From: a virus
Lineage: Duplodnaviria; Caudoviricetes
DNA length: 34,692 nucleotides
Virus record (IMG/VR): IMGVR_UViG_3300032281_000474
Coordinates: 1-34,692 of that record
Reading direction: 5' to 3' (one strand)
The notes beneath the pieces are model-generated. The model did not search any database, was not told where the DNA came from, and saw only the letters and a program-made list of their open reading frames with translations. The position numbers and the translations under genes are program-made. Shown here in pieces: positions 2,089 through 26,873 of this stretch. The number at the start of each line of letters is the position of its first letter. The stretch's first letter is position 1.

Positions 2089-2117
2089 ATCATACACTAT
2101 ATACTACTTATTGTCAA
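2089..2117 (-). promoter_or_regulatory. sigma70-type early promoter
   Basis: Minus strand TTGACA (2117-2112), 17-nt spacer, TATGAT (2094-2089); ATG at 2082 begins at the 7th nt after the -10 box. Confidence 0.8.
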
Positions 2118-5936: not shown

Positions 5937-6566
5937 TTACGTTAGTAACCAACCAATAAATGATGAAGTAACATCAGGTGTTGTTTTAAATGTCAGTCTA
6001 ATTGTAGCATAATTTTGATCGCAAGTTAAATTTTCATTTGCGTTTGCTATTTTATAACCGCCTGCTTGTACAACTGTTAAATTATTTGAATTCCATGTTC
6101 CAAACGAGTCAACAAATAAAACTTGATCGTTGTCTGAAGGATTGCTAGGTAAAGTCATATTAAATCCGGCATTTGTTGTGTTAATTATATATGCACCACC
6201 TGCGACTGCTGTAAAGTTGGCAGCTTTATATTCCCATAAAATAGAACTTGCAGAAACCCACGAAGGATTCGCTCCAGCTCCTCCTGTTCGTAAAACTTGT
6301 CCAGCTGTTCCTGCTGGTAATCTTGCTACACCTGAAGCATCTCTATATAACAAATCACCTTGTGTTGTAAGTGCTGTTACGTCTGCTCCTTTTTGTGCTA
6401 ATTTTGACCAATATGTAGCGTTAGCTGTATTATTTCCTGTTGAAGGAGAAATACAAATAAATGTTTCTCCGCCTGAAGTTACAATGTCGTCTATAACGTA
6501 AGCTGTGGCACCGTTGTAAGCGCCTTGAAATACCGGTTTAATTCTTCCTAAATTTAGTGTTGCCAT
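5937..6566 (-). CDS. Short tail-fibre-like adaptor protein
   Basis: One CBM5/12-like repeat (GAYNGATAYVIDDIV...FICI), fibre motif TTQGDLLYR...RLPAGTAGQVL, and a C-terminal domain YIINTT..FNMTLP..P..ND.V.FVD..GTW..NNLTV resembling T4 gp34-type repeats. Confidence 0.75.
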   Translation of the reverse strand: MATLNLGRIKPVFQGAYNGATAYVIDDIVTSGGETFICISPSTGNNTANATYWSKLAQKGADVTALTTQGDLLYRDASGVARLPAGTAGQVLRTGGAGANPSWVSASSILWEYKAANFTAVAGGAYIINTTNAGFNMTLPSNPSDNDQVLFVDSFGTWNSNNLTVVQAGGYKIANANENLTCDQNYATIRLTFKTTPDVTSSFIGWLLT

Positions 6567-8134: not shown

Positions 8135-8142
8135 TATTTATT
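8135..8142 (-). promoter_or_regulatory. Possible late promoter variant AATAAATA
   Basis: One mismatch to TATAAATA, in the short gap before the ATG at 8125; the AT-rich background weakens this. Confidence 0.4.
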
Positions 8143-11100
8143 AATCGTTATTTGCTATTTTCCAACCAAAATTTGCACCACTGTAAACTAAACTAAATCC
8201 TGCATTTTTAGTTGTTACATCCATATCTTCTGTTAGATTCATGATTTTTAAACCATTTCTTTTTACTATTAATTTATTTGTGTCAAAAGTACCTTTTTGA
8301 TCTAAGAAATATATAGTATCACCTATTGCCGGAGCACCAGGTAAATTTATAAAACATTGTGCAGTTGTAGTGTCTATTAAAAATCTATCATTGTTTGCTG
8401 ATGAAAAATTAGTTGAACCATCTCCTACTCTTGTAACAAATGGATTACCACCACCTAAACCTGTCCATACTGTGCCATTATATCCTTCAAAAATTGTTGT
8501 ATCAGTGTTAAATCTAAGTCCACCTGTAAACAAATTACCACCAGTAGGTCTCTCAGCTGTATTACCTGTTGGAGGAACCCATATACCCGTTCCTGCTTGA
8601 TCTCTTGTTAAATATCCTAACATAGCATATTCTGTTGGAATAGCCGTGTTACTATTACCTGATAATGTTTCGTCTGTTGAAAATTCATTAATTGTGGCAC
8701 CTAATTGAGCACCAATAGAACCAAGTTGTAATTCAGATAATCCTGAAAGATCAAAAGCGTCAGCATTTAAAGTTGCAATTCCTGTTGCTTGTTGAATACG
8801 GAATAAATCTCCTACTCTAAAATCTCCATCTTGGTCTGTAGAAACGAAATAAACACGGCCTCCGTTTAATTCATCTACTTCATCTGTTTGATCGGCAGGT
8901 TGTGTTGGAATTCCTGGATAATTTGTTGTAATTATATCGCCTGTACCTACATTTAAAAAATCGTGACCTGTTAATCGGACGTTAGAGTAATTAGATGTAA
9001 CTAAAATTGTATCATTTTCATTTATTGGTCCGTTTATTTGTGTAACACTGTCTGTTAAACGTATTGTAGCTGTACCTTGAGCATTGTTTTCTTCTGTTAC
9101 AGCATTTACACGATAATATGTTGCGTTGCCGGCAAATTTAACGTTTGATCCTATTTTTATTATATTAGAAGAAGTTAAAGCAGTTGTTCCTGATTTTACC
9201 GTTATTAAAGGACCTATTTGACCTATTTGTGCAGTAAGTGAACCGGCAGTTAGATCACCAAAAGTGGCATTTAAGGTAACTTGAAATGTTGAACCATTTT
9301 CTTTTGTAATAGTAACAATTTCACCTTTTCTAAAGTTGCCGCTTCTATTTCTAATGTGTAAATTATTTAAAGAAAGGTTATATCTAAAAAGTATAGCAGT
9401 AGCACCTGATATAGTACCTGTAACTGTAGCTGTACCAGAACCATTTGTAGAAATTGAATTTGAAATATCTGTAGCTGTAGCAGGTGATATAAAAGCTCCT
9501 GCGCCATTGGCAAATCTTATCATATCGCCTCGGCCTTGTACATTAATAGGTGTTTCTGCAACTAATTGACCATCAGCAACAGCACCATATTCTCCGTAAC
9601 AAGATGAACCGTTTAGACTTCTTATGAAACCACCTTCAGTACCATAATAAGATTTATTACAGAAATAAGTAAAACAAGAAACCATTTCTGCTCTACCATT
9701 ACCGTGACACCAAATACCTATACCATCAGAATTAATTTGTGTAAAGTGTGTACCTAAAATTGATTTATTACTTGCAGCGTTTGTGTGTAATAGTCCATCA
9801 ATTTTAATACCAACAGCGTTACTATTTAAAGATGTCATATCTTGTAGATATGGAGATTGAGTTAAAATTGCGCCTTCGGGGTCTAATGAAGTAACAACAG
9901 CACCACCAAAACCGGTGTTAGCACTTAAATGTGTAGAAGTACCTGTCATACCTCTTAATGTCATTAATCGTAAATTTGTACCATCATTTAATAACCACAT
10001 ATAAGAAGCATTGTTTGCTTCTAATGAGGCAACTGTAATTGTTAAAGTACCTGCACCGCCGCAACCTATAGCGGCAGCATTTATTGCTGCCGTATTTCCT
10101 ACTTCATAATTATAACCACCATGATAAACGCCTACAGCAGAAACAATACCACTTGCGATTGTTATATTTACTACAAGACCGGCGCCTGCGCCTGTAGATG
10201 TTGTTGGATGTTTATATTTGTAAGTACCATTCGTAGCACTTGAAATTGTAGATGAAGTTGTAATTGTAGCAATTGTAGATGAATTTCCCGTAGCAGGCCT
10301 TACCTCAACTGCTCGTAACGCTTCACCTCTTACAGATACTCCAGCAGGAACAATTAATGGTAATTGTTCTCTATATGAACCACCTTTTACCCATAATACA
10401 TCTCCGAATCCTACATTACCTACTGTTAAAATTAAGTTTGTTGCGCCACTTAAATAAGATGAACCTGTTATTGTAATTGTGTCGCCGACTGCATAATTTT
10501 TACCGCCATTAACTATTACTATATTGTTAAGAGTAATAGCAGATGAACCATCTTTTGTAACTTGAATGATTATACCTGTTCCTGAACCTGATGTTGATGT
10601 AATACTAACAGTAAATACACCTGCTGCACCTCCTGTGCCTCCTGAAAATGCTGAAAAATCTAAAACATCCTGTCTATTTGCAGCTGCAAGAGCGGCTTTA
10701 ATTGTTTTGTAAGGTAAAGTTTTTGAACCTGGATTATTATCGTTTCCACTATTTGAAACATATAATACGTTTTTACCACCTTCATCATATCTCCATTCAG
10801 GAATTGTTCCATTTGAAGTTAAAATTGAACCTGCAGGTCCCAAATCTAATCGTGAAGGTGCACCTGAAGCGTTTGTGAAAATCATATCACCAGCTTCAGA
10901 CATTACGTTGCCTTCATCGCCGACAGCTACTGTTTCCCAAACTGTTGCGTCTGTGCCTGGTGTTATACCGGTCTGTCTATCTTTTTTCTGTACGTAAGAT
11001 GTTCCTACGTGTCTTACAACTTCACCGATTAAATATGTTGTACCTGAGGAATATGCACCTTTAAATATAAATCCTGTAGATACTAAATTCCAATAAGATG

Positions 11101-11908
11101 AATTTACGGCACCCGTGGCCTGTACAGCTGGATATTGATTTGAATGGTTTGCATTTACTACGTAAGAATTTCCTCCGTAATTAACTACTTCTCCTACTTT
11201 GTAAGCAGTACCATGTGAGTATGCACCTGTAGGTTTGTAACCTGTTGTTACAACGTCCCAATATGCGTTATCAGTAGGTGTGTTACCCGCTGGTGTTTCT
11301 TGTATTGCAACGTAAGTATAACCACCGTAAGTTACTACATCGCCTGTTTGATAATTTGTAGCAGGATTATAACTATCTTCCCATTGTAAACCATCAGAAT
11401 AAACACTAAATTTTGTTTCATCAAAAGCTGAAGCACTTGCTGATGATGTGTGAGCTGTTGTACAAATCCAATGACCTGCACCGTACTTAACTATATCATT
11501 AACTTTGTAATATGTGCTTACTGCGTATGCACCTTTGTAATCTGTACCATCAGTATATAGTTGAAAATTTGCTGTGTCTAATATTGCTACACCAGCTACA
11601 GCGGCAGCTGATGTGTGTTGAGTTGAACAACGATATTGTCTTGATCCGTATTTTACAACATCATTTAATTTGTAATGTGTAGCGGCAGCATAAACACCTT
11701 TAAAAAATAAACCTTCTGTGTGTAACGACCATTTGGCAGCAGTTAAATCAGTGTAAAAATTTGGACTTGTAGATTGTGAAGTATGATTGACTATACAAAC
11801 GTATGAATTACCACCATACTTTACTATGTCGTCAATAACATAAGCTGTTGAGGTAGACCAGTCGCCTCGCCATTTAAATTTAATTCTACCTAATTGAAAA
11901 TCTGCCAT
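8141..11908 (-). CDS. Large tail fibre / virion structural protein
   Basis: 1255 aa. Six N-terminal CBM5/12-like repeats; VLYVSNSGNDNNPGSKTLPYKTIKAAL (typical entry to a pectin-lyase-like beta-helix); PTGNTAERP...LRFNTDT..FEGYNG fibre motif; gp34-like C-terminal domain. Confidence 0.85.
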   Translation of the reverse strand: MADFQLGRIKFKWRGDWSTSTAYVIDDIVKYGGNSYVCIVNHTSQSTSPNFYTDLTAAKWSLHTEGLFFKGVYAAATHYKLNDVVKYGSRQYRCSTQHTSAAAVAGVAILDTANFQLYTDGTDYKGAYAVSTYYKVNDIVKYGAGHWICTTAHTSSASASAFDETKFSVYSDGLQWEDSYNPATNYQTGDVVTYGGYTYVAIQETPAGNTPTDNAYWDVVTTGYKPTGAYSHGTAYKVGEVVNYGGNSYVVNANHSNQYPAVQATGAVNSSYWNLVSTGFIFKGAYSSGTTYLIGEVVRHVGTSYVQKKDRQTGITPGTDATVWETVAVGDEGNVMSEAGDMIFTNASGAPSRLDLGPAGSILTSNGTIPEWRYDEGGKNVLYVSNSGNDNNPGSKTLPYKTIKAALAAANRQDVLDFSAFSGGTGGAAGVFTVSITSTSGSGTGIIIQVTKDGSSAITLNNIVIVNGGKNYAVGDTITITGSSYLSGATNLILTVGNVGFGDVLWVKGGSYREQLPLIVPAGVSVRGEALRAVEVRPATGNSSTIATITTSSTISSATNGTYKYKHPTTSTGAGAGLVVNITIASGIVSAVGVYHGGYNYEVGNTAAINAAAIGCGGAGTLTITVASLEANNASYMWLLNDGTNLRLMTLRGMTGTSTHLSANTGFGGAVVTSLDPEGAILTQSPYLQDMTSLNSNAVGIKIDGLLHTNAASNKSILGTHFTQINSDGIGIWCHGNGRAEMVSCFTYFCNKSYYGTEGGFIRSLNGSSCYGEYGAVADGQLVAETPINVQGRGDMIRFANGAGAFISPATATDISNSISTNGSGTATVTGTISGATAILFRYNLSLNNLHIRNRSGNFRKGEIVTITKENGSTFQVTLNATFGDLTAGSLTAQIGQIGPLITVKSGTTALTSSNIIKIGSNVKFAGNATYYRVNAVTEENNAQGTATIRLTDSVTQINGPINENDTILVTSNYSNVRLTGHDFLNVGTGDIITTNYPGIPTQPADQTDEVDELNGGRVYFVSTDQDGDFRVGDLFRIQQATGIATLNADAFDLSGLSELQLGSIGAQLGATINEFSTDETLSGNSNTAIPTEYAMLGYLTRDQAGTGIWVPPTGNTAERPTGGNLFTGGLRFNTDTTIFEGYNGTVWTGLGGGNPFVTRVGDGSTNFSSANNDRFLIDTTTAQCFINLPGAPAIGDTIYFLDQKGTFDTNKLIVKRNGLKIMNLTEDMDVTTKNAGFSLVYSGANFGWKIANND
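10930..11875 (-). repeat. Six ~50-aa carbohydrate-binding-like protein repeats
   Basis: Consensus [FYW]xGxYxxxTxYxxxD/EVVxYGxxxYxxxxxH seen six times in the translation; boundaries approximate. Confidence 0.8.
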
Positions 11909-16067: not shown

Positions 16068-16075
16068 TATTTATA
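16068..16075 (-). promoter_or_regulatory. T4-type late promoter TATAAATA
   Basis: Exact match overlapping the stop of 16071..16466, upstream of the RBS/ATG at 16046; marks the return to structural genes. Confidence 0.7.
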
Positions 16076-16466
16076 TAAAAAATTCAACCCTATAATAATT
16101 TCTTATATCTGGCACTATGCCTTTATTTTCATTGAAAGGCATAATTTTCTTTAGTATTTCGTCATAAGTATAAGTATCTTCGTCATACGTTTTAAAGTAT
16201 GGATCATTACCATATAACAAATTCTTATCGTTTAATAATTCTATAAAATCTTCTTTAAAGTCTTTAGATAACCAATGTGCATAACATATAGCTACTACGT
16301 AACTTTTAGAAGGATAAACAAATCCCATATCTTTATCATAAAAATACTTTACAGCATTTTCTATTATGTCTTTAGAAAATTCTACTTTAATCTTATTTAA
16401 ATCGTCAGTGTGTTCGTCATTCAATTTATGATATAACGCTTGCCTGACTTTCCATTCTTTTATCAT
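16071..16466 (-). CDS. Hypothetical protein, last gene of the rSAM operon
   Basis: 131-aa ORF overlapping the rSAM gene end by 41 nt; no recognised motif. Confidence 0.65.
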   Translation of the reverse strand: MIKEWKVRQALYHKLNDEHTDDLNKIKVEFSKDIIENAVKYFYDKDMGFVYPSKSYVVAICYAHWLSKDFKEDFIELLNDKNLLYGNDPYFKTYDEDTYTYDEILKKIMPFNENKGIVPDIRNYYRVEFFI

Positions 16467-17370
16467 AGTAATCTAATAGTCCTTTATATCCATTACAACT
16501 GTTATTCAAATCTTTTACATAACGATAGTGTTCTGTTAAACAATGTCCATAGTATTTACAACTCTTACAAATGTCAGATATATTTTTTAATGGTTCATTG
16601 TCTGCCCATTTTAAATAATCTTTAAACGATTGCAATTCTAAAAAGTATTCTTTATCGTTTTTATCAAACTCTAATACACCAAAGTTTCCATTCGGTGTTA
16701 TGTAAACATGATTATTTGAAAATGCGTTATACTCTTTTTTTAAACTCTTAATTATTTTACCTTCATTTATAAAATCAAATTTTTTCTTTACATCACTTTC
16801 AATCCACTTCTGTACAAATAATTCAAAATCTTTATGTGTTACAGGTTGATTGTTTGCCTGATTTATTGAGTAAGGTTTTATCTCTACACTTTCAATACTA
16901 GAGCAAAGATTTAACTTATGTATCATTTCATCTACATTCATATTTAATACTTTTTCACTTGCTAATATTAAAACGGCTATAGGCACTGTACTTTGAAACA
17001 TATTGTTATAAACTAAATCAGATTTTTCTCGTGCATCAAAGTCATAACTTACACTTAAATAATAATCATCTTTAAAAAATCCTTCGTGCAACATAGAATA
17101 GTTTGTTATAATGTTTATTTTATCTTTATAATATTTTCTTATAATATCTTTAAGGCCGTAAAAATAATCTTTTTTTAAAGCACCTATCTCTCCTCCATAT
17201 AAATCAATCCATTCTATAACTCTTACTTTACTAATTTCTTTTAATTTTTTATCTAATATAGCCAAGGGGATTTGTTTTTGGTCGCCTAATTGTTGAGAGG
17301 TTAGATAACAAAAGTTGCATCTAAAATTACAAAAGTAACTAGGATTTATAGAAACAGTTATTTTATTCAT
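16426..17370 (-). CDS. Radical SAM protein with partial SPASM-like C-terminus (rSAM-4)
   Basis: CNFRCNFC (CxxxCxxC), YGGE, ITN; C-terminal CKSCKYYGHCLTEH...CNG. Confidence 0.9.
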   Translation of the reverse strand: MNKITVSINPSYFCNFRCNFCYLTSQQLGDQKQIPLAILDKKLKEISKVRVIEWIDLYGGEIGALKKDYFYGLKDIIRKYYKDKINIITNYSMLHEGFFKDDYYLSVSYDFDAREKSDLVYNNMFQSTVPIAVLILASEKVLNMNVDEMIHKLNLCSSIESVEIKPYSINQANNQPVTHKDFELFVQKWIESDVKKKFDFINEGKIIKSLKKEYNAFSNNHVYITPNGNFGVLEFDKNDKEYFLELQSFKDYLKWADNEPLKNISDICKSCKYYGHCLTEHYRYVKDLNNSCNGYKGLLDYYDKRMESQASVIS

Positions 17371-17940
17371 TTAATATAATATTAAATCTACTGGCATAGC
17401 CAATCTTATTTTACCGTAAAAGGTTTTTACATTATGATATAAGAAACTAGGAAAAATTATAAATTGTCCAGTTTTAGGTGTTATGGTTTTATTATTAAAC
17501 CATTTATTATATTCCTCTTTATATCCTCTATTTGCATTAAATCTAGGGTCTTGTAATACTAATTCACCACCTTTATCGTTTTCTTCACAAAGTAAATAAA
17601 ATACAGCACTTAAATAAGAACCTGAATGATTGTGCAAAGGCATAGAATAAGAAAATCCCTTGCCTGTAATCCATGCTTTTAAATGATATTTTTTTTCTTT
17701 TAAACTTAACTCAAATTCTTTCTTGTAAAACTCATCAAAAGCAGGTATTATTACATTATCTTTAAACTCTAATAGATTTTTATTTTCTAAAATGTTTTCA
17801 TTTATTAAATTAGATTTTACTTTAATTTCATCACCATAATTAGATAATATGTAATTAGAAGTTTTTTCTAATAAAACCTTATTAGACACATTACCGTTAA
17901 AAACAGGTGTGGGCCAACAATAATTAAATCCTTCTTTCAC
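17371..17940 (-). CDS. Putative 2OG-Fe(II) oxygenase (TIGR02466-like)
   Basis: AWI...HNHSGSYLSAVFYL...GGEL.LQDPR...IIFPSFLYHNV...R; GTG start in a GTGA overlap. Confidence 0.85.
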   Translation of the reverse strand: MKEGFNYCWPTPVFNGNVSNKVLLEKTSNYILSNYGDEIKVKSNLINENILENKNLLEFKDNVIIPAFDEFYKKEFELSLKEKKYHLKAWITGKGFSYSMPLHNHSGSYLSAVFYLLCEENDKGGELVLQDPRFNANRGYKEEYNKWFNNKTITPKTGQFIIFPSFLYHNVKTFYGKIRLAMPVDLILY

Positions 17941-18470
17941 TTTGTTAATCTTTCATCTATATAATAATTAAAACTTGCAACACGTCTAGGCAATTTAAGT
18001 TTTAAAGATGTTACCATGTGTTCAAATTTCATACTTTGATTCATTACCAATAAGTCATATTGTTTTGGATAGTGTTCTATTAATTCTCTCTTACTTAATG
18101 TTTCTCTAAAACAAATGGCACCACCTATATCGTTGTCCATAGTGTCAAAATATGCAAGTATGCAAAGATTAGGTCCTTCAATCAAATCATTATGCCAAAC
18201 CAAGGTGGCCTTATCCATACCATTTACTAAGTCTATCTTATCTGACAACCTATAATTAACGTCTATTTGTTTTACGTATTTTTCACCTAGATATTTTTGT
18301 GTATCTTGTAATTGTTTTTTTATTGATTCATCTTTAATAACAACTTGTAAACCTACGTGACCAGCATCTGTCCATTTAATCTCATTCAAATCAATAAATT
18401 CAAAGGCGTCTTTATCGTTTGTTAAAACATAACCTTGTGTTAAAAAATTATCCAACATTTCTACTTTCAT
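17937..18470 (-). CDS. 2OG-Fe(II) oxygenase (prolyl-hydroxylase-like)
   Basis: WHND (HxD)...GGAICF...FEHMV...RRVASF; the start may be MLDNF, four codons downstream. Confidence 0.8.
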   Translation of the reverse strand: MKVEMLDNFLTQGYVLTNDKDAFEFIDLNEIKWTDAGHVGLQVVIKDESIKKQLQDTQKYLGEKYVKQIDVNYRLSDKIDLVNGMDKATLVWHNDLIEGPNLCILAYFDTMDNDIGGAICFRETLSKRELIEHYPKQYDLLVMNQSMKFEHMVTSLKLKLPRRVASFNYYIDERLTK

Positions 18471-19548
18471 CTATATAAGGTGTTAACTCAATATTATTTA
18501 GACCGTTTGCACTTAATACTTTTGGTGCAATACTTTTCATAATCTTACAATGTTCTTCTACAACATTATGTTTTTTAAAATCTTTAATCGTTTTTCTGCA
18601 ACCATTACATATACTAAACATAGGACATTCAAAACAAGCTCTTTTCATACTATATAATTTCATATCACTTTGTAAAGGTTTAAAAAACTCGCCATTCATT
18701 TCTCTATCAAAATCAATTGACTTGTCTTTATCGTCACCAAAAGCACCACAAGAATAGTAATCTCCACTAGGATTTAATGCACGTATTCCTTCATCACACT
18801 TTCTGTTTTGAGGACAAAGTGTGTGTTCACCTCTTACTCTTTTCATCATTTGTTTAGTATTAAATTCCCAATGGTACATATTTTGTTCCCATATCTCTAC
18901 ATACTTTTGATATATCTTACTTAACAAATAAGGTTTATCTTGTGCGCCACTTGACATAGCATAGTTTAATTTACACTCCACACCTACCTTATTAGCCTTT
19001 AATAAATTATGAGTTGTTCCATAAGGTATCTTGCCATCAGACATTTTATAAGCTAACTCTACATTTTTTAATGCTAGATGTTCATTTTCAGGAACAATGA
19101 CCGCAATAAAGTCAGGTCTATAACCACAGTATTCTAACATAGTATCTGAACATTTCCAAAAATCTTCTTCTGTAAATTCTGAGTAATCACCTTTTAAACG
19201 GCCACCACCATATTGAAAAGATGTATTAACTCCTACTCTATCGTTATTAAATAGACTAGCCCATTTTTTAGGTTTCTTATAAAACGGCCATAGATTGGTA
19301 GTAAGGGATATTGATGTATCATATTCGTGTTCATCTAACCAATCAATAATCTTCCAATAATAATCTGGTTCTACCATTAATGGGTCGCCACCATTTACTA
19401 TGATTGTTTTTGTATGTGGAAATCTTTTTAAAAAACGAAAGATATAATTATGATTTAATAAATCACTTTTGTGCATAGCAATTTTAGTGCTAGAACAAAA
19501 CGTACATTTAAAATTACAAGCTTCAGTAGGTTTAATAATTAAATCCAT
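18448..19548 (-). CDS. Radical SAM/SPASM domain protein (rSAM-3)
   Basis: IIKPTEACNFKCTFC, GGDPL, TTN; SPASM-like CPQNRKC...NPSGDYYSC...CFECPMFSICNGC...HC. Confidence 0.92.
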   Translation of the reverse strand: MDLIIKPTEACNFKCTFCSSTKIAMHKSDLLNHNYIFRFLKRFPHTKTIIVNGGDPLMVEPDYYWKIIDWLDEHEYDTSISLTTNLWPFYKKPKKWASLFNNDRVGVNTSFQYGGGRLKGDYSEFTEEDFWKCSDTMLEYCGYRPDFIAVIVPENEHLALKNVELAYKMSDGKIPYGTTHNLLKANKVGVECKLNYAMSSGAQDKPYLLSKIYQKYVEIWEQNMYHWEFNTKQMMKRVRGEHTLCPQNRKCDEGIRALNPSGDYYSCGAFGDDKDKSIDFDREMNGEFFKPLQSDMKLYSMKRACFECPMFSICNGCRKTIKDFKKHNVVEEHCKIMKSIAPKVLSANGLNNIELTPYIDESRNVG

Positions 19549-20126
19549 TATATTATATTAGGATTGTTTCGTGGTTGGTCTTTTACTTTCCATCCTAGAA
19601 CTAATGATGTACGAGGTTTTTCACCAAAATAAGGTTTAACTCTATGTGTTAAAAATCCTGGAAATATAATTAATCTGTTTTGTTTAGGCAGAATATTTAC
19701 TGCATTATTTGGATATTCGGCAAAAGTTAAATTTTTATAGACAGTTAACTCTCCACCTGTCCAAATTTCTTCATTATAATCACTATCTATATAATATATA
19801 GCTGTAATAAAAGAACCTTCAACCATATCATTATGTGGTTCATATAAATGATTCGATACTTTTGTTTGTTCGTATTTGTATAAATTGCCCTTTTGAAAGT
19901 TTGACATTTCCAAATTATTAAAATCAATATTATTTTGATAACAATAATTTACCACTGTTTTTTTTGCATAAAGTAGAAACAATTGTTGACTAGGAGTTAA
20001 ATTAAAATTATCTTGTCCTTGAATAGTATTTACTATATCACTTTCTTTTTTTAATTGATCTATTAAAATTTTATCTAATAAAAAATTATCTAATATTTGA
20101 ATAGTATCTGTAAATTTAAATTGCAT
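19548..20126 (-). CDS. 2OG-Fe(II) oxygenase (prolyl-hydroxylase-like)
   Basis: HND...ITAIYY...WTGGEL...NRLIIFPGFLTHRVKP...RTSLV; ATG 20126 (MQFKF) preferred over the non-ATG start at 20162. Confidence 0.85.
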   Translation of the reverse strand: MQFKFTDTIQILDNFLLDKILIDQLKKESDIVNTIQGQDNFNLTPSQQLFLLYAKKTVVNYCYQNNIDFNNLEMSNFQKGNLYKYEQTKVSNHLYEPHNDMVEGSFITAIYYIDSDYNEEIWTGGELTVYKNLTFAEYPNNAVNILPKQNRLIIFPGFLTHRVKPYFGEKPRTSLVLGWKVKDQPRNNPNII

Positions 20127-20649
20127 AACGTATATAATATTTATCTTGTTTTTTAAAACCAAATTGTTGCATTATCTCTCTATGATAAGGTTCTTTTTGT
20201 ACTCGTTTTTGATTCATAGTTAAATGTAATTGTTCAATATACGAACCAGTAGGAACTATTATTTTGTGATTAGGAAAAGTTTTAATTATATCTGAATACA
20301 TTTGTCTTATTAATTTTCTTACACTTATCTTTGTTCTTTTTCTTAAAACGCCTGAATATTTTACACTACCTAATACAATTTCATTATCGTAAATATGCAA
20401 CATAGCTATACCCTTTTCTAACTTCCAATTTTCTTTACAGGTAACCCATTGTTCTTCGTTTTTATTTTTTATTGTATCTTCGTAAATATCAGGATCAGTT
20501 TCTTTTGTTCCCCACCATATAAAGAAGTGTGCTTGCCTACCACATATTCTAGGAACATATGGGTGTTTTATTGGTAAAGTATCTAAAACTATATCAACAT
20601 TAGGTATACTTAATTTAATTGGCGATGTAGTTTCTTTGTACTCGTACAT
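20116..20649 (-). CDS. Hypothetical protein in the rSAM operon (weak GNAT-like pattern)
   Basis: ORF coupled on both sides; ATG 20649 (MYEYK) chosen to shorten the overlap, track start is 20688. Confidence 0.6.
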   Translation of the reverse strand: MYEYKETTSPIKLSIPNVDIVLDTLPIKHPYVPRICGRQAHFFIWWGTKETDPDIYEDTIKNKNEEQWVTCKENWKLEKGIAMLHIYDNEIVLGSVKYSGVLRKRTKISVRKLIRQMYSDIIKTFPNHKIIVPTGSYIEQLHLTMNQKRVQKEPYHREIMQQFGFKKQDKYYIRYAI

Positions 20650-21667
20650 CTTCGATATATCTGTGCGTAAGTTTATAGACACACTCATCTAACTCCTCTC
20701 TATATCTATAATCGTGGTTCATAAAGCATCCTAAAGTACATCTGTCTAAGAACTCACAAGAAGCACAATTATATTTTTCTAAAAATTTGTTTTCAATGAT
20801 ACTATTATCCATACGTTTAATAGGAGATTTATACATACTTAAAGACTTTTTATCTTGTACTAAATTACCACACATACATAAAGTACCATCAGCTAGAACC
20901 AACTTACTAACTCTACAAGAAGAATAGTTTTTCTTATTAAAAATCCAATCTTTTACAGGATGTACGTGAGGATAATTATCTACACAATGTTTAAAAAACT
21001 TTAATAGTAATTCATCACTTGGCATATTAAACTTAGCGTGTTCATCTGGCATATAATAATCAAAGTAAATGTATTTACCACTGTTATAGAGGTAATCAAA
21101 GTATTCATCGCCATTGTTTAAATAATATTCTATATTAGGTTTAGTTAGTAAACAAGAAAAACAAGTTACTCTATCGCCAAAGTAATCAACGTTACTTTTA
21201 AATATTTCAAACTGTATTTTATTGAAACGGCCTCGTGGGTCGTATGAAGTTGTAAGTCTTGCAGGTATGTCATTGTCTTTAGAATATTTTAATAAATCTT
21301 CTATTTGGTCAATACCTTTTTTATCAGTAACTAAATTAGATACCCAATTTAGTGAATAAGATTTATTATATTTTTTTGCTATTTGAGATATACCTAACGA
21401 TAATTGCTTATAGGCTTCATTTAATTCTTTTGTGTAAATGCTGGGTGCAAATACTTCACCTCCCATTATATTTAAAGTAACTTTGTTCTTAAACTCTCTA
21501 CTAATAAACTTTTCAATAGGTTCTAATTTATTTAAAACAGTATCTATACCTATTTTATCTTGGTGATTTTGCCAGCAGAAAGAACAACTTAGATTACAAA
21601 ACTCAAATAAATGTATTGTATATTCCTGTTCAGGATCTCGTTTAGGTTCAATGATAAATTCTCTCAT
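20615..21667 (-). CDS. Radical SAM/SPASM domain protein (rSAM-2)
   Basis: CNLSCSFC, MGGE, VSNL; C-terminal SSC...ADGTLCMC...CASCEFLDRCTLGC...C. Confidence 0.92.
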   Translation of the reverse strand: MREFIIEPKRDPEQEYTIHLFEFCNLSCSFCWQNHQDKIGIDTVLNKLEPIEKFISREFKNKVTLNIMGGEVFAPSIYTKELNEAYKQLSLGISQIAKKYNKSYSLNWVSNLVTDKKGIDQIEDLLKYSKDNDIPARLTTSYDPRGRFNKIQFEIFKSNVDYFGDRVTCFSCLLTKPNIEYYLNNGDEYFDYLYNSGKYIYFDYYMPDEHAKFNMPSDELLLKFFKHCVDNYPHVHPVKDWIFNKKNYSSCRVSKLVLADGTLCMCGNLVQDKKSLSMYKSPIKRMDNSIIENKFLEKYNCASCEFLDRCTLGCFMNHDYRYREELDECVYKLTHRYIEDVRVQRNYIAN

Positions 21668-21673
21668 TATAAC

Positions 21674-22777
21674 CTATAACAGTTGATATTTACTTAAAGC
21701 CTCGGTGTTGTTGTTTCTTTTTAAATTGAAAATATGTTGTATTAAAACATAATTAACATTTTGAAAATCAAATTTAGGAACTAAACAAGTATCAAAGGGA
21801 TTTGCAACAACGAAGTCAAGCACAGTATTCATTTCGGCATTAGTAATAGTATCTTTAGCTGCTAATTCTAAATAGTCAAAAGCACTAAACATTGTTCTAT
21901 TAATTTCCATTCCCTCTACATCAGCATAAATTTTCTTTATTAAATTTCTTAAACCAGTTATTTTTTCTTGTGATAAATTTTCTATTTTACAGATACCGTA
22001 AACACCAGAACCATAACTATCTTTTTGTTCCCATATAGTATTGTCAGCGTAATATTGTAATGAAGTTACATTTGCAATAGGATTGTTTGAATTTAAATCA
22101 ATGTCGTTTTCTGTAAAGTTTAATGATGTTTGAAAATTTTTATTTAATAAGTTCAACAATATCATTTCTCTATTATCCGTAAAACATTCTTTTAACCATC
22201 TTTTTAAAAACTTGTGTAATGTGGTATTTAATTTTGCCGTGTATTTAGATGAACCACTGAAATAGTCTGATAATAATAACTCATATGAATAATCTAAATT
22301 TAAATCTTTAACTTTTGTTCTCTCACTATCTGTAATAGAAATAGAATTGAAAACACTATCTAAATTACCTAATCCTATCCATAATTGGTCAGCTGTAGTT
22401 AAATGATTTGGTTGTAATTGCGTGTTACTAACAATTCTTTCTTTATAAACCGTTAATTGTAATATCTTATTAAAAGCGTTTAAATCTACATTAGGAAGAA
22501 TAGTTTTAATCCAAGTAACTAAGAATTTATTAAAGTTTTCTTTATCTGCATATACTACAAGTTTTTTACCTGATGTATCAACATGGGTTTTTATATCTAC
22601 TATTAAGTCTGAAAAATTTGTTGGAAAAGTAAGTGAGTAATTTAATAAAGTACCTTTTAATACTGTTTGTAATTCTTGGTACATTTGTACACCAGACTTA
22701 CCTATTACAACCCTATCTAAATCTGGTTGAACATAGTCGTCTAAACTTAAATATACTTTATTGAATAAATGTATCAT
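21674..22777 (-). CDS. Hypothetical protein (367 aa) in the rSAM operon
   Basis: Long ORF, TAATG-coupled to the upstream gene; mostly helical-looking; no recognised motif. Confidence 0.75.
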   Translation of the reverse strand: MIHLFNKVYLSLDDYVQPDLDRVVIGKSGVQMYQELQTVLKGTLLNYSLTFPTNFSDLIVDIKTHVDTSGKKLVVYADKENFNKFLVTWIKTILPNVDLNAFNKILQLTVYKERIVSNTQLQPNHLTTADQLWIGLGNLDSVFNSISITDSERTKVKDLNLDYSYELLLSDYFSGSSKYTAKLNTTLHKFLKRWLKECFTDNREMILLNLLNKNFQTSLNFTENDIDLNSNNPIANVTSLQYYADNTIWEQKDSYGSGVYGICKIENLSQEKITGLRNLIKKIYADVEGMEINRTMFSAFDYLELAAKDTITNAEMNTVLDFVVANPFDTCLVPKFDFQNVNYVLIQHIFNLKRNNNTEALSKYQLL

Positions 22778-23457
22778 TACTTATTTATACCTTTTAATGT
22801 TAATTCTCTTGCCTGCATATATTCTTTACCTCTACCATTAGCTATTGACCAAGTTAAAAGAAAAAGAGGATTCTTATCGTTTGCCCAATATTCAAACATA
22901 TTTTTTCCTCTAAAGATATAGTCATTAAAGTAATGTGTATAAAATTTTAACTTATCATTATTTATTTTTCCATAAAAACTAAAAAATCTATCATGTTTTA
23001 AAAGACTTACAAAGTTAACACCTTCCATATCTCTTGTTTCATCTTTAGGAAAAGATTGTGCATAATCTCTAAAGTGGTCAGAATTTAACATAAACATATT
23101 ATAAACAGATAAACTTTCCAATTTATTTTGCCATTTTTCTAATGTTTCAAAGTTTTCTGAAATAAATTTATTATAATTTTCATTTTTAGAAATGCCTTTC
23201 ATAGTAAAAAGAATATCTATAACAATATTTTCTAAAGACGATATACTAACTAATGAAACAGAACTTAAATAATCTTTTACCAAATCTAAGTCTATATTTT
23301 TTATGTCTGCTGGTATATCTAAATTACTTAAATACGTAATTAATTTTTTACCTTTTAATTCAGATGTTGAATAATCAATTAAATAATTTATATCTTTATC
23401 TGTAAAGTATTTTTTTAAATTTTCAATTGATATAGGAGCACTTGTTTCAATAACCAT
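22777..23457 (-). CDS. Hypothetical protein (226 aa) in the rSAM operon
   Basis: Long ORF, TAATG-coupled directly behind the CHxS-repeat protein; no Cys, no recognised motif. Confidence 0.75.
   Translation of the reverse strand: MVIETSAPISIENLKKYFTDKDINYLIDYSTSELKGKKLITYLSNLDIPADIKNIDLDLVKDYLSSVSLVSISSLENIVIDILFTMKGISKNENYNKFISENFETLEKWQNKLESLSVYNMFMLNSDHFRDYAQSFPKDETRDMEGVNFVSLLKHDRFFSFYGKINNDKLKFYTHYFNDYIFRGKNMFEYWANDKNPLFLLTWSIANGRGKEYMQARELTLKGINK
22782..22789 (-). promoter_or_regulatory. Possible internal T4-type late promoter TATAAATA
   Basis: Exact match in the last codons of 22777..23457, 4 nt before the ATG at 22777; could be chance in AT-rich coding DNA. Confidence 0.5.
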
Positions 23458-23990
23458 TATCTTCTTCCTCTACTACCATGACAAGAACCATGGCAGCTTG
23501 AATGACAAACATCAACGTTGTCTGTTATAGTTGTTGTTCTGATTGTGTTGTATGCCGTTGCAATATTACCAAAATATGTTTCTAATTTTGTATCATCAAT
23601 AGTAGAGTTGGCAGTTATATCAGTAGCAGTAATAGCACCTAACGCATCTCTATTACCAGTATCTAAATGTGCTATTGCTGTCTGGTCAAAATTAACTCCT
23701 GCACCTATTATAGTTCTTGTTGCTCTTTGTTGTCTTATGTTTGTATATAAAGCAGCTTCAGTTTCTAATACAGTTTTAATTGTTGTAGCAGTAATTAAAG
23801 TACCTGTGATGTCGGCGCCTGTAATGTTTATAGAGTCGCCTGCTATTGTGCCTGCGTAATTGCCGGCAGGCATTTCTGCGAAAGGTAAAGAATCTGTGCC
23901 CCAAACAATATTTGCGTTTGCAACGTCTGTTACTAAATCTTCAAATTTATCTACTATACCTTGTTTACTAATAGGATTAGATATGGTCAT
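23457..23990 (-). CDS. Virion-like protein with C-terminal (CHxS)3-RGRR motif; candidate rSAM substrate/precursor
   Basis: T/A/I/G/D-rich body lacking Cys; ends ...VDVCHSSCHGSCHGSRGRR*; directly follows and overlaps an rSAM/SPASM gene. Confidence 0.7.
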   Translation of the reverse strand: MTISNPISKQGIVDKFEDLVTDVANANIVWGTDSLPFAEMPAGNYAGTIAGDSINITGADITGTLITATTIKTVLETEAALYTNIRQQRATRTIIGAGVNFDQTAIAHLDTGNRDALGAITATDITANSTIDDTKLETYFGNIATAYNTIRTTTITDNVDVCHSSCHGSCHGSRGRR

Positions 23991-25011
23991 AACTTATATT
24001 TTGTTTTAACTCCTTCATCAAACTTTTTGGTGCACCACATATATCTCCTTGCCAAGCAAGTTGGTGGCAATCACCTCCACAAAACTCAAAAACTTCACAA
24101 GAAAAACAAATAGGGTTTCTTGCACGTTCACAAGCGATGTTTTCTATTCTAACTGGACTATTTATAACAGTTTTTATATCGTCAGTTATATGACCAAATT
24201 GAAATTCTGGTGCTGAATTAGGGCATCCTGATATGGTTCCATCTGCATTTAAAGTAAATATCTTTTGTTCACAATCTCTACAGAAAGTACCACCTTTCAG
24301 AAATCCCGTTTCAAATTTACTGTATATGATTTCTAAAGTATCATTATCAAACCAGCTTCTACAATCATTCTCTTTTGATTGATGGTGCATTTTTAAAAAC
24401 CATTTATCTTGTTCTATATTGTCAGGAAATATCTCTGGATGTAATTTAGCATTACCGTTACCTGTTAATCTTTCAAAAGATACCTCCTGTACGCCTAATT
24501 CTTTAATCCATTTTAATAGTTTTATAGGCTCTATATTAATAGTGTCTTTTGTTACACTTATAAACAATCTGATTGTAACACCTTTTGAAAGTAAATCTTT
24601 AACGTTTTTTTCCCATAAATTATATTGTTTATCATTTTCAAATCTTATTTTAGGGTCCCAACTTGTACCCATACGATTATTTAATGGCCCTTTTATAAAA
24701 TTATAATGTTCTTCTTTTAATTTAAAAACTAAATTAGATGTAATACCAAAGGTACTTCTTTTCCATAAATCTTTACATTCGTCATATACTTTAACCATGT
24801 GCGATACAGGAACTAAAAAAGGTTCACCACCGTGAAACTCAAAGTGTATGGAATCTTTGTCGTCATTAAAATGTTGTTTAAATCTTTTTATAAAATCTAT
24901 CGTTTTTGTAGGATTAAAATAGATTTTGGCACCATTAATACCACTTGTAAAACAATGTTTGCAATTTAATTGACAAGTTTCTGTTGTCTTTATATAAAAC
25001 ATCCAATTCAT
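23977..25011 (-). CDS. Radical SAM/SPASM domain protein (rSAM-1)
   Basis: YIKTTETCQLNCKHC, FHGGEPFL, TSNL; full SPASM-like CRDC...NADGTISGCP...CFSCEVFEFCGGDC...C. Confidence 0.93.
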   Translation of the reverse strand: MNWMFYIKTTETCQLNCKHCFTSGINGAKIYFNPTKTIDFIKRFKQHFNDDKDSIHFEFHGGEPFLVPVSHMVKVYDECKDLWKRSTFGITSNLVFKLKEEHYNFIKGPLNNRMGTSWDPKIRFENDKQYNLWEKNVKDLLSKGVTIRLFISVTKDTINIEPIKLLKWIKELGVQEVSFERLTGNGNAKLHPEIFPDNIEQDKWFLKMHHQSKENDCRSWFDNDTLEIIYSKFETGFLKGGTFCRDCEQKIFTLNADGTISGCPNSAPEFQFGHITDDIKTVINSPVRIENIACERARNPICFSCEVFEFCGGDCHQLAWQGDICGAPKSLMKELKQNISYDHI

Positions 25012-25460
25012 TAATTATATCCTATACTTAATGCCCAAGTGAAAGGTAAACTTTCAACTTTATGTTTTGCACCTTTGGGTATTGATATTGATTGGCCTTC
25101 GTTTACTATTATGGGATAATTTTCTACAAAAACTTTTTTACTACCTTTTATAACACATAACAGAACGTTTATATCATCTGTGTGTTCAGGAAAAGAAAAT
25201 CCGCCTAACTGATTATAAAATAGATGTACATTTTTCATTTTAAAATTCAAATCATAATCTTTCAATAGTTGTAAATGATAATTATTATCTTCTAATCCTT
25301 CAACTTTTATATGAGGAATGTTTTTATAATTTTTTACCCAATTACTAAAAGTTATTTCATTCTTAACTTTATAGTCTTTACCTTCTTTATCTATATAAAT
25401 TATTTGATTATTTTCGTATCTTGTGAAGGATATTAATTCATCATTTAAAGCATTAATCAT
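25011..25460 (-). CDS. Cupin/JmjC-like protein
   Basis: SFPEHTDDINVLLCVIKGSKKV...G.SISIPKGAKHKV (HxD...H, similar to cupin-4/JmjC hydroxylases). Confidence 0.75.
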   Translation of the reverse strand: MINALNDELISFTRYENNQIIYIDKEGKDYKVKNEITFSNWVKNYKNIPHIKVEGLEDNNYHLQLLKDYDLNFKMKNVHLFYNQLGGFSFPEHTDDINVLLCVIKGSKKVFVENYPIIVNEGQSISIPKGAKHKVESLPFTWALSIGYN

Positions 25461-25480
25461 ACTGTAATATTTATTACAGC
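25461..25480 (-). promoter_or_regulatory. Inverted repeat containing a late-promoter-like AATAAATA, abutting the first ATG of the rSAM operon
   Basis: Minus strand G-CTGTAATA-AA-TATTACAG-T-ATG: perfect 8-bp inverted repeat 25462-25469/25472-25479. Confidence 0.6.
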
Positions 25481-25484
25481 AAAA

Positions 25485-26873
25485 TTATAGTATAACTGCC
25501 TCGATAAGGCCTTTTTCATTGTCTTCCAATGCTATAGCAAAAACTTTATTAAATTCATCACTTACTTTTGCTGCATAACCACCGTTACCTGCAACTAACT
25601 CGTCGCCTTTTTTTATATCGCCAGTTACTTTGACTAAAACACGGCCTTTTAATGCAATTGGTTGACCTTCTGCTTTTGCATTCATTAAAAAAGCAGGTTT
25701 TTCAGATATAACACCTAAGGCTCTATGTCCTACAAAACATTCTGTTACTTCTTGTGAACCACCTATCATCACAACAGTACCTATATTATAATTTTTATCT
25801 GTTTTATAAATTTCGGCTAAATCGGCGTAATTTGCTTGTGCAGCAGTTGTTGTTAAAACATTTGTACTAGGATTGTATGTCAAATCTGTATCTGTTTTTA
25901 TTGTTTGAGCACCTGTTGCAGCTGCGGAAAAAGTTATGAAATTAACAGCATTAGCAGAATTATCTGCTGTTAAAGTAACTAAAGAGGCTGTGGCACCTGA
26001 ACCTGTTAGTGTTGTTGCATTTATAGTGTTAACAGTTAATGTATCTGCTGATAGATTTAATTTTGCAGCTCTAATTGTATTGTCGGCAATATCTTCATTT
26101 ATAATCGTACCATTAGCAATCATTGTACTTGTAACCGTACCTGTGTCGCCTGTTGTTACAACTGTACCTGAAATATTAGGTATTGTTATTGTTCTGTCGG
26201 CCGTAGGGTCAATAACTGTTAATGTTGTTTCAAAGTTATCTGCTGTTGCGCCTTCAAAAACTATATCACCTGAAGTTAAATTTAAACTTGTGCCTTGTAA
26301 TGTACTAGAAAATGTTCCTGTTGTACCTGATACTGCACCGGTAAATGCACCCGTTGTTCCTGATAAGGCACCAGTAAATGTACCAGTTGTTCCTGATATT
26401 GCGCCTGAAGAAATTAAAGAAGTTGCGTTTATTGCACCAGCAGATAATGTACCGGTTGTTGTTAAATTTTCATTACTAAAACTTATAGAACCTGTTGAAC
26501 TTGTAATTAATCCTGAAGATATTGATATAGTGCTGACATTTAATCCTGTTACAATAGAAACTGTGTTTGGAAGACTTAAAGTTAAAGTGTCAGGTGAACT
26601 TACAACGGCATTAATTTGATTATTTGCGCCTACAACATCTAAAGTTTGACCAGCACCAATAACTTGAATTGTTGAACTCGAATCTCTAATCGTCCAACCA
26701 GCAGCAGAAAAGGCAACAGCCGCTATTTCTACAACAGCACCACAAATAGAAGTTGCTGATAAACCAGCACCTGCAAGTATTGAAGGATTCCCAAAATCAT
26801 TTGTAGTTAAGTTGTTTAACTTAACTCGCATTTGTTCTAGTGTATCAGTGGTATTGATTATTGTAAATGCCAT
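25485..26873 (-). CDS. Tail fibre with C-terminal intramolecular chaperone/autoproteolytic-like domain
   Basis: MAFTIINTTDTLEQMRVK.N (T4-like fibre N-terminus); T/G/S-rich shaft; YADLAE.Y...GTVV...GVIS..PA.LMN...IALKGRV.VKV.G.I.KGD.LV (peptidase-G2-like C-terminus). Confidence 0.8.
   Translation of the reverse strand: MAFTIINTTDTLEQMRVKLNNLTTNDFGNPSILAGAGLSATSICGAVVEIAAVAFSAAGWTIRDSSSTIQVIGAGQTLDVVGANNQINAVVSSPDTLTLSLPNTVSIVTGLNVSTISISSGLITSSTGSISFSNENLTTTGTLSAGAINATSLISSGAISGTTGTFTGALSGTTGAFTGAVSGTTGTFSSTLQGTSLNLTSGDIVFEGATADNFETTLTVIDPTADRTITIPNISGTVVTTGDTGTVTSTMIANGTIINEDIADNTIRAAKLNLSADTLTVNTINATTLTGSGATASLVTLTADNSANAVNFITFSAAATGAQTIKTDTDLTYNPSTNVLTTTAAQANYADLAEIYKTDKNYNIGTVVMIGGSQEVTECFVGHRALGVISEKPAFLMNAKAEGQPIALKGRVLVKVTGDIKKGDELVAGNGGYAAKVSDEFNKVFAIALEDNEKGLIEAVIL
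26300..26410 (-). repeat. 11-aa (33-nt) degenerate tandem repeat in the fibre shaft
   Basis: SGAISGTTGTF-TGALSGTTGAF-TGAVSGTTGTF-SSTLQGTS; boundaries approximate. Confidence 0.8.

What the first reader, a model, noticed from the sequence alone, without database searches (positions are those of the whole stretch)
16071..25460. Phage-encoded RiPP-like modification operon (4 rSAM/SPASM, 3 2OG-Fe(II) oxygenases, cupin/JmjC, candidate substrate) inside the tail gene block
Seen: 13 co-oriented genes, nearly all overlapping or abutting (TAATG at 25011, 23457, 22777, 19548; GTGA at 17937), flanked on both sides by fibre/virion genes. Four carry CxxxCxxC plus Cys-rich C-termini, and four carry HxD/HxH...H motifs. 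Established: rSAM-SPASM enzymes are chiefly peptide/protein-modifying (sactipeptide/ranthipeptide thioethers, cyclophanes, anSME, PqqE), and 2OG/JmjC enzymes hydroxylate peptide residues. Inference: this is a multi-step post-translational modification pathway. I recognise no exporter or protease, which together with the location favours maturation of a virion protein over a secreted peptide. I know no characterised pathway with this layout, but cannot exclude uncharacterised homologues in other phages.
Basis: partly seen in the sequence, partly recalled or inferred. Interest (0 to 1): 0.93.

Follow-up and report, generated by a model that had tools for sequence, protein, structure and literature searches.

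The report
Radical-SAM kit maturing a virion protein
Behind a tail-fibre gene this phage carries a widespread set of four radical-SAM enzymes and helper genes around one small protein whose Cys-His repeat tail almost never changes; a relative of that protein is found in purified phage particles, and the enzymes likely cross-link its tail chemically, by a pathway I found described in no paper.

Summary
Observation confirmed. The 13 genes form a conserved cassette. Its core (cupin, four rSAMs, two unknown proteins, and the 177-aa protein ending CHxSCHxSCHxSRxRR) recurs in IMG/VR phage contigs, in cultured jumbo phages (RSL2, Atu_ph07, Phosso, DT01) and, judged by one marker rSAM, in 19 of 401 Bdellovibrionota genomes. 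Both halves travel together: 49 of 52 rSAM loci with enough flank hold the tailed protein.

It behaves as a virion protein. The Atu_ph07 orthologue gp170 is in the particle proteome, the enzymes are not, and this 32-kDa protein peaks in the top gel band. A T4-type late-promoter motif sits upstream of it in 37 of 42 sequence clusters (controls 0-1). Self-cleaving-chaperone fibre genes are its usual neighbours in phages (58/71) and predatory bacteria (11/15).

The residue two after each His is never Gly (0/952), which fits His-to-C-beta cross-linking. No modification is shown. The 2OG oxygenases are accessory, and one rSAM lacks a full SPASM domain. It works like the HXS system but fails its membership tests. 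This scan noted the same kit before on other DNA (39 findings, at least 29 genomes).

The parts
25485..26873 (-). Fibre protein, 462 aa, ending in a Peptidase_G2-type self-cleaving chaperone domain (about 25488-25823); usual upstream partner of the cassette
   Evidence: Pfam PF11962 27.8 bits, cut-off 25; G2-like fibre in 58 of 71 viral loci; Atu_ph07 homologue gp176 in particles
25011..25460 (-). Cupin, 149 aa, H93-x-D95...H133; core gene in phages
   Evidence: Cupin_2 25.4 bits, under cut-off; 51 of 51 viral, 4 of 4 cultured, 6 of 16 bacterial loci
23977..25011 (-). rSAM R1, 344 aa, full SPASM (8 conserved auxiliary Cys); usually directly upstream of the substrate gene
   Evidence: nearest solved relatives by profile include anSME and ChlB
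24159..24166 (-). T4-type late-promoter motif TATAAATA inside R1, 169 nt upstream of the substrate start
   Evidence: 37 of 42 clusters against 0-1 for other genes; 31 of 31 against 0.91 expected from codon use
23457..23990 (-). Candidate substrate SUB, 177 aa: folded three-helix plus beta-sheet body and a C-terminal tail
   Evidence: model pLDDT 88.6, tail low; Atu_ph07 gp170 orthologue in particles
23460..23507 (-). Tail, residues 162-177: three Cys-His-x-Ser units and Arg-Gly-Arg-Arg
   Evidence: 109 of 114 homologues; 132 of 145 distant representatives
22777..23457 (-). Core unknown protein U226, likely substrate-binding or chaperone partner (inferred from position)
   Evidence: phrog_20767; 49 of 51 viral, 4 of 4 cultured, 13 of 16 bacterial loci
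21674..22777 (-). Unknown protein U367, near-core
   Evidence: 45 of 51 viral, 2 of 4 cultured, 9 of 16 bacterial loci
20615..21667 (-). rSAM R2, 350 aa, 7 conserved auxiliary Cys
20116..20688 (-). Accessory unknown protein U190
   Evidence: 21 of 51 viral loci, none in cultured or bacterial loci
19548..20162 (-). 2OG-Fe(II) oxygenase, H110-x-D112...H173; accessory
   Evidence: PF13640 37.5 bits
18448..19548 (-). rSAM R3, 366 aa, 8 conserved auxiliary Cys; most conserved enzyme (50-64% identity to cultured phages)
17937..18470 (-). 2OG-like oxygenase, H93-x-D95...H151; accessory
   Evidence: weak PF13640 17.1 bits; triad conserved
17371..17940 (-). 2OG-Fe(II) oxygenase, H103-x-H105...H169; accessory
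   Evidence: PF13759 46.5 bits
16426..17370 (-). rSAM R4, 314 aa, only 4 conserved auxiliary Cys (one extra cluster at most)
16071..16466 (-). Core unknown protein U131
   Evidence: phrog_20737; 50 of 51 viral, 4 of 4 cultured, 15 of 16 bacterial loci
16068..16075 (-). Late-promoter motif at the downstream edge of the cassette, in front of the fibre-assembly genes

Best explanation
The block is a conserved gene kit, shared by unrelated phages and predatory bacteria, whose four radical-SAM enzymes likely cross-link the (Cys-His-x-Ser)3-Arg-x-Arg-Arg tail of a small protein that is likely made late and built into the particle, probably on a fibre. SHOWN: gene set, co-occurrence, tail invariance, the orthologue in Atu_ph07 particles, the conserved late-promoter motif, linkage to chaperone-bearing fibre genes. 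INFERRED, in falling order of confidence: (1) the rSAMs, with U226/U131 as helpers, modify the tail covalently (about 0.7); (2) the protein works as a cap or adhesin on a chaperone-folded trimeric fibre, as gp38 does on gp37 in phage S16 (about 0.45); (3) the chemistry is H abstraction from the C-beta of the residue two after each His and coupling to the imidazole (triceptide-like), with Cys thioethers or metal ligation as further steps by the other enzymes (about 0.35); (4) the product is a rigid, probably metal-binding tip used in host or prey surface contact, or a cross-linked oligomer. The variable 2OG oxygenases and B12-rSAMs would be optional tailoring steps.
For: Co-occurrence: R1-R4 in 51 of 51 full-span viral loci (R1 and R3 by construction), SUB in 49; 49 of 52 R3 loci with 9 kb upstream hold SUB, and one of the 3 exceptions has two SUB genes further along its contig; 14 of 16 bacterial loci have a canonical SUB. 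Tail invariant while the body diverges to about 30%. Virion: gp170, 31.89 kDa matching my translation, 8 peptides, 35% coverage; gp164-169, 171, 172 not listed (PMC6102473 Table S5). It peaks in band 1, the only such case among 34 proteins of 25-40 kDa with 3 or more peptides. Late-promoter motif 37 of 42 against 0-1, synonymous codons fixed 31 of 31 against 0.91. Fibre linkage: 58 of 71 viral loci; fibre gene directly abuts the SUB pair when the enzyme block is moved away (L091, L092, L162, L175/L176); S74 fibre within 10 kb in 11 of 15 Bdellovibrionota genomes, 0.17 expected. Chemistry: His+2 is S 851, N 73, A 21, Q 3, D 3, P 1, G 0 of 952, while His+1 is G in 205; a few tails drop Cys but keep H-x-S/N (L209, L210); i to i+2 His-C-beta links by rSAMs are known (HaaB, YhhB, ScaB; PMC11002830); best NCBIfam hits are PapB for R1 and DynA for R3.
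Against: No enzyme activity or modified residue is shown. The published gel buffer lists no reductant and the particles were PEG-purified, so disulfide polymers or co-purified aggregates explain band 1 equally well; the table does not say whether the tail was seen. Cys precedes His in 944 of 952 cases, so thioether or metal-ligand roles fit as well as His cyclophanes, and the no-Gly rule could be structural; the tails are related, so the 952 are not independent. All named-family scores are far under cut-off (PapB 52 vs 340, DynA 42 vs 450), and the R3 profile finds only MoaA and an unnamed rSAM, weakly. 13 of 71 viral loci lack the chaperone fibre nearby; RSL2 and DT01 have other fibre genes there. 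The promoter motif is absent in the 4 cultured jumbo phages. The RSF1 record labels the positional orthologue ORF071 hypothetical while calling ORF067 a virion protein. The R3 loci tested were the best 80 of 359, so distant forms are under-sampled.
Confidence: 0.68

Rival explanations
1. Metal-cofactor loading: the Cys3His3 tail is an unmodified ligand set, and the rSAMs and helpers build a metal cluster or small cofactor and load it onto the tail, in the way hydrogenase and nitrogenase maturases do (recalled).
Against: R1's nearest solved relatives are protein- or peptide-modifying enzymes; some tails lose Cys; the His+2 position is restricted though it is not an obvious ligand.
Confidence: 0.13
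2. Released or delivered peptide: the tail is modified, then cut off or injected to act on the cell, for example binding DNA at the envelope as matured HxsA is proposed to do, giving superinfection exclusion or prey manipulation.
For: HxsA has basic His-x-Ser repeats, is matured by two rSAMs and blocks DNA entry (PMC13128918); the invariant Arg-x-Arg-Arg end is unexplained by the adhesin model; ABC transporters lie near 2 bacterial loci.
Against: No protease, exporter or HxsA match in the cassette; the body is a conserved folded domain; gp170 runs at or above full size in most of bands 1-9.
Confidence: 0.1
3. Passenger linkage: the enzymes act on something else (host surface polysaccharide, a metabolite, other fibre proteins), and SUB is only a structural neighbour in the hypervariable host-recognition island.
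For: This island collects glycosyltransferases and gains and loses rSAM cassettes (PMC7029224); oxygenase number varies 0-6; phage RP31 has four non-orthologous rSAMs in the same slot without a CHxS protein.
Against: Enzymes and SUB stay together across T4-like phages, phiKZ-like phages and bacterial chromosomes despite rearranged gene order.
Confidence: 0.09

Closest known systems
HXS antiphage system (HxsA, rSAMs HxsB/HxsC, HxsD; TIGR03976-03979; PMC13128918)
   Same: rSAM enzymes plus a small helper encoded with a folded protein that carries tandem His-x-Ser repeats and basic residues; a covalent change was mapped to such a repeat in HxsA.
   Different: Four or more rSAMs of another family (PHROG 1802); repeat period 4 with Cys, at the extreme C-terminus; no signal peptide or peptidoglycan-binding domain seen; phage-encoded and particle-associated rather than periplasmic defence.
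Triceptides (3-residue cyclophane rSAMs XncB, OscB, MscB, HaaB, YhhB, ScaB; PMC11002830)
   Same: Aromatic residue at i and a C-beta-bearing residue at i+2; His-C2 to C-beta links are known.
   Different: Substrate is a 177-aa folded protein, not a leader-core peptide; enzymes score far under the cyclophane models; multiple rSAMs; no protease or exporter.
Ranthipeptide and QhpD-type thioether systems (PapB, CteB, QhpD), and the predicted CXXX-repeat system TIGR04114/04115
   Same: SPASM rSAMs and Cys spaced every four residues; QhpD shows that a folded protein subunit can be the target.
   Different: No Asp/Glu acceptor pattern; His and Arg invariant; all scores under cut-off.
Fibre-tip adhesin gp38 on gp37 trimer (phage S16; PMC6851490) and Bdellovibrio MAT S74 fibres (PMC10769870)
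   Same: A small protein encoded with a trimeric fibre; in Bdellovibrionota the neighbours carry the same S74 chaperone domain as MATs.
   Different: No fold match to gp38 was found; the bacterial neighbours are short (330-440 aa) with prepilin-like N-termini, unlike the roughly 1000-aa MATs; neither paper's passages mention rSAM maturation.

Membership tests
HXS system | HxsB and HxsC above curated cut-off | tested here: not met
   R1 vs TIGR03978 34 bits (cut-off 370); R3 vs TIGR03977 32 bits (cut-off 268)
HXS system | HxsA-family substrate and HxsD | tested here: not met
   No HxsA model among the 25 of 26 families shown for 78 SUB members at E up to 1; no HxsD hit among the 13 proteins
HXS system | Tandem His-x-Ser triads with basic residues beside rSAM genes | tested here: met
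HXS system | +8 Da modification, N-terminal processing, periplasmic export, antiphage activity | not testable with these tools
   needs experiment
Triceptides | Aromatic residue at i, C-beta-bearing residue at i+2 | tested here: met
   His+2 never Gly in 952 positions
Triceptides | rSAM above cut-off of a cyclophane-forming family (YhhB, AmcB, FxsB, XyeB, GrrM) | tested here: not met
   best 31 bits against cut-offs of 310-450
Triceptides | Cyclophane cross-link formed | not testable with these tools
   needs MS and NMR
Ranthipeptide / CXXX-repeat systems | Maturase above cut-off (PapB, TIGR04115) and target matching the Cys-repeat models | tested here: not met
   PapB 52 vs 340, TIGR04115 33 vs 350; no CXXX target model among those shown
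rSAM-SPASM superfamily | CxxxCxxC core plus 7-8 conserved C-terminal Cys | tested here: met
   met for R1, R2, R3; only R1 passes TIGR04085
rSAM-SPASM superfamily | Same, for R4 | tested here: not met
   4 conserved C-terminal Cys
RiPP in the strict sense | Leader-core precursor with protease or exporter | tested here: inconclusive
   none matched, but four cassette genes have no named family
gp38-type adhesin | gp38 fold (three-helix attachment domain, beta-helix, polyglycine sandwich) | tested here: inconclusive
   not listed in fold searches

The most novel reading that the evidence does not exclude
Large phages and predatory bacteria share a dedicated radical-SAM pathway that builds a polycyclic, metal-binding His/Cys warhead on a fibre-tip protein and uses it to recognise or attack the Gram-negative envelope: RiPP chemistry installed on a virion, in an exchangeable slot behind the fibre genes where other tip-protein-plus-rSAM kits can take its place (as in RP31).
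Probability: 0.3. Interest if true: 0.95.

Novelty: categorically new. Interest (0 to 1): 0.82.

Why it matters
Virion proteins are assumed to be matured by proteolysis, chaperones and occasional glycosylation or disulfides (general knowledge, recalled). A phage-encoded multi-rSAM kit for a particle protein would be a new layer of virion assembly and possibly of host recognition. It would explain the rSAM and oxygenase clusters that several jumbo-phage papers list without a function, and it would tie phage adsorption to Bdellovibrionota surface fibres. It is directly testable: cultured carriers exist, and the Atu_ph07 protein is already known to be in the particle. The label 'categorically new' applies to the system; rSAM modification of His-x-Ser or Cys motifs in proteins is a known chemistry class, and if the chemistry proves HxsA-like the label should drop to 'new variant'.

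Tried and rejected
Complex prediction of three copies of the fibre end (residues 281-350) with SUB gave no answer: score 0.09, mark 0.32, no controls folded; it is no evidence either way. Fold searches of the SUB model found nothing clear in PDB (Foldseek none at E 0.001; VIA best Z 3.9, rmsd 5.0, 140 aligned); in BFVD it found family members and weak hits to three larger proteins of one uncultured myovirus, not followed. U226 model: no clear PDB match. U131, U190, U367: no informative match; my idea that U190 is a GNAT was not supported. The Atlas gave no answer for SUB. tblastn with SUB found no cultured phage, although orthologues are there. No R3 match in 72,556 plasmids at E 1e-20. TATAAATA is not enriched in the window as a whole (7 against 9.8 expected), and PMC7029224 reports failing to predict late promoters in pelagimyophages. 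RNA runs held only small shares of the stretch and are contigs: they cannot rank genes or show a start. As a weak hint only, contigs in 2 of 8 runs end at 24138 and 24144 in letters I recognise (recalled) as sequencing adapter, 15-21 nt downstream of the motif, and 2 of 8 do so at 16045 below the next motif; one run has a contig across 24139-24328. The short Bdellovibrionota protein beside the cassette matches the G2-like chaperone profile only weakly (hhalign E 5e-4, probability 33%, controls E 0.13-0.71) and no Pfam family. The R3 tree is the quick tree only; it separates phage from bacterial copies (support 96) but is unrooted, so no donor is claimed. The 'Marinovum', 'Rickettsiales' and 'Rhodobacteraceae' hits were rejected as bacterial carriers: they lie among phage structural genes. 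RP31 was checked as a second proteome test and rejected: its rSAMs are not orthologous, and its 32-protein list lacks ORF68-76 altogether.


Full report
SETTING. The window is a 34.7-kb virus record with baseplate-wedge, DUF4815 (VrlC-type, name recalled), fibre and fibre-assembly genes on the minus strand. This is the host-recognition island of T4-like aquatic phages, described as lying after VrlC and gaining or losing radical-SAM cassettes without further comment (PMC7029224, passages). Near-identical contig pieces occur in lake-water RNA runs. The host is unknown.

OBSERVATION. The 13 genes, their overlaps and motifs are as described. R1, R2 and R3 keep 8, 7 and 8 C-terminal Cys across 107-115 orthologues; R4 keeps 4 across 112. 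All four belong to PHROG 1802 and fall far under every named rSAM cut-off.

DISTRIBUTION. R1, U226 and R3 each hit the same number of records, 15 of 50,697 cultured phage records, from Ralstonia, Burkholderia, Pseudomonas, Agrobacterium and Sinorhizobium phages. I read 4 of them in detail; in each the gene after R1 ends in the same tail. SUB has 114 close homologues, 109 with CH..CH..CH, and 719 clusters at 50% identity; 132 of the 145 new representatives returned end in the canonical 16-mer with C, H, C, H, C, H, R, R, R invariant. In IMG/VR, 156 stretches encode a SUB relative, and the 80 returned show near-constant order. In the converse test, 359 stretches encode R3; of the best 80, 52 have 9 kb upstream and 49 of these hold SUB. 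The 3 exceptions have a rearranged order; one contig has two SUB genes further away, and two are fragments at 10% and 16% completeness. In 51 deduplicated full-span viral loci the counts are R1-R4 51, cupin 51, U131 50, U226 49, SUB 49, U367 45, U190 21, with 1-6 oxygenases and 4-6 CxxxCxxC genes. R3 also occurs in 19 of 401 sampled genomes of the phylum of a Bdellovibrio record, twice on contigs over 2 Mb. Of 16 such loci with R1 and R3, 12 have SUB inside the fetched stretch, 2 more have it 10-13 kb away, 1 has a short variant and 1 is cut by a contig end. Oxygenases are missing from 11 of 16 bacterial and 2 of 4 cultured loci, so they are accessory.

IS SUB A VIRION PROTEIN? Three independent lines say so. 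(1) Atu_ph07 gp170 is the orthologue by sequence, position and predicted fold; my translation gives the tabulated 31.89 kDa. Table S5 of PMC6102473 (supplement parts 2 and 3 read) lists it with 8 peptides and 35% coverage in bands 1-9, most abundant in band 1; no other cassette gene is listed. That band 1 is the gel top I infer from the 127-139 kDa proteins found there. The buffer lists no reductant and the particles were PEG-purified, which weakens the cross-link reading. (2) TATAAATA, the T4 late-promoter consensus (PMC2984593, passages), lies in the last 300 nt of R1 or just after in 37 of 42 SUB clusters, against 0-1 of 33-42 for seven other gene ends. At the main site the synonymous codons spell the motif in 31 of 31 genes, against 0.91 expected and 11 of 155 comparable sites elsewhere. 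The 4 cultured jumbo phages lack it. (3) Fibre linkage. The upstream gene ends in a Peptidase_G2 chaperone. Fibres of 299-2859 aa with this ending lie in 58 of 71 viral SUB loci, a median 1.5 kb upstream, and directly abut the SUB pair in rearranged loci. The Atu_ph07 counterpart gp176 (66 kDa) is in particles and peaks with 50-56 kDa proteins, as expected after chaperone release (52.5 kDa). In Bdellovibrionota the neighbours are prepilin-like proteins with S74 chaperones; one lies within 10 kb of R3 in 11 of 15 genomes tested (4 of 19 not tested), against 0.17 expected from 0-4 matches per genome (the genomes are related). S74 fibres are known prey adhesins in B. bacteriovorus (PMC10769870, passages), and a monomer capping a fibre trimer is known from S16 gp37-gp38 (PMC6851490, passages). 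That SUB caps the fibre is inference.

CHEMISTRY. Over 316 distinct tails (selected for at least one Cys-His and a basic end), His+2 is Ser, Asn, Ala, Gln, Asp or Pro and never Gly, while His+1 is Gly in 205 of 952; His-1 is Cys in 944. A few tails lose Cys but keep H-x-S/N at period 3. rSAMs are known to join His to the C-beta at i+2, and others to form Cys thioethers, also in folded proteins (PMC11002830, passages). The HXS system matures His-x-Ser repeats of a protein with two rSAMs (PMC13128918, parts 1-4 of 9 read). I therefore commit to covalent tail cross-linking (0.68), with His-C-beta links the most likely single chemistry (about 0.35). Nothing here shows a modification.

WHAT IS IN PRINT. 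Searches 'jumbo phage + radical SAM + RiPP' and 'phage + virion protein + radical SAM + post-translational modification + tail fiber' returned 0 papers. A looser search returned 7; in the 3 whose passages I read, the genes are only listed, and the other 4 I saw as listings. 'His-Xaa-Ser + radical SAM' returned 5 listings, of which I read the HXS paper. The library lacks most subscription journals, and bioRxiv supplements were closed, so absence is not proven. The RSL2/RSF1 virion tables could bear on the claim and were not seen. For RP31 I read passages and Table S3 of PMC5468394.

EARLIER SCAN NOTES. The same kit was noted in 39 findings on at least 29 genomes, with the same broad reading. 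I had the cultured-phage, proteome, HXS and Bdellovibrionota results before the first look-up. The listings I saw do not mention the late promoter, the gel shift, the His+2 rule or the quantified chaperone-fibre linkage; I saw only their first lines.

VERDICT. A real, widespread, undescribed system that works like an rSAM protein-maturation cassette (HXS-like) but is a member of no tested family. Interest 0.82.

Noticed in passing
L217:6163-16743 (Ralstonia phage RP31 ORF68-76): Behind fibre genes like those of RSL2, RP31 has four rSAMs not orthologous to R1-R4 and a 125-aa protein with a different His-containing end. Possibly a second, interchangeable tip-protein-plus-rSAM kit in the same slot.
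   Followed up: partly
L197:18801-19421, L198:17055-17684, L200:16159-16773, L202:6319-6963, L089:6567-7178 and 6 more: A strongly conserved family of about 200 aa in 11 Bdellovibrionota loci, beside the cassette; its C-terminal part weakly resembles the G2-like chaperone. No Pfam family.
   Followed up: partly
L197-L202, L205, L209, L089: Short proteins (330-440 aa) joining a prepilin-like N-terminus to an S74 chaperone, often with a small protein bearing a twin-arginine-like N-terminus next to them; unlike described MATs.
   Followed up: partly
L085:13313-15016, L200:4653-6380, L205:13568-15280: A B12-binding rSAM (probable methyltransferase) is inserted in some cassettes, in phages and bacteria.
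   Followed up: no
L091, L092, L162, L168, L172, L175 (pairs of 126-140 aa); L044-L046, L078, L167, L198, L202: Tandem pairs of tailed proteins, suggesting a hetero-oligomer; in the rearranged form further divergent rSAMs follow the pair.
   Followed up: partly
L209:8762-9370, L210:4310-4918, L208:15294-15608: Variant tails with fewer Cys and period-3 His-x-Ser repeats; these loci have long-branch R3 enzymes.
   Followed up: partly
window 146-2097: A 2OG oxygenase, a heme oxygenase (PF01126) and an unknown 273-aa protein (phrog_7084) at the far end of the fibre block.
   Followed up: no
window 8141-11908 and 5937-6566: Fibre proteins with CBM_5_12 carbohydrate-binding repeats; each has TATAAATA just upstream.
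   Followed up: no
window 25461-25484: The spacer before the cupin holds a TATAAT-like element and a short inverted repeat, a possible early promoter for the enzymes.
   Followed up: no
P0037: A 117-aa protein 99% identical to SUB that lacks the third helix and the Cys-His repeats but ends in the same basic residues: an internal deletion or an assembly artefact.
   Followed up: no
BFVD hits A0A8S5USJ7, A0A8S5USV2, A0A8S5USJ8: Three 500-660 aa proteins of one uncultured myovirus resemble the SUB fold weakly; possibly larger family members.
   Followed up: no
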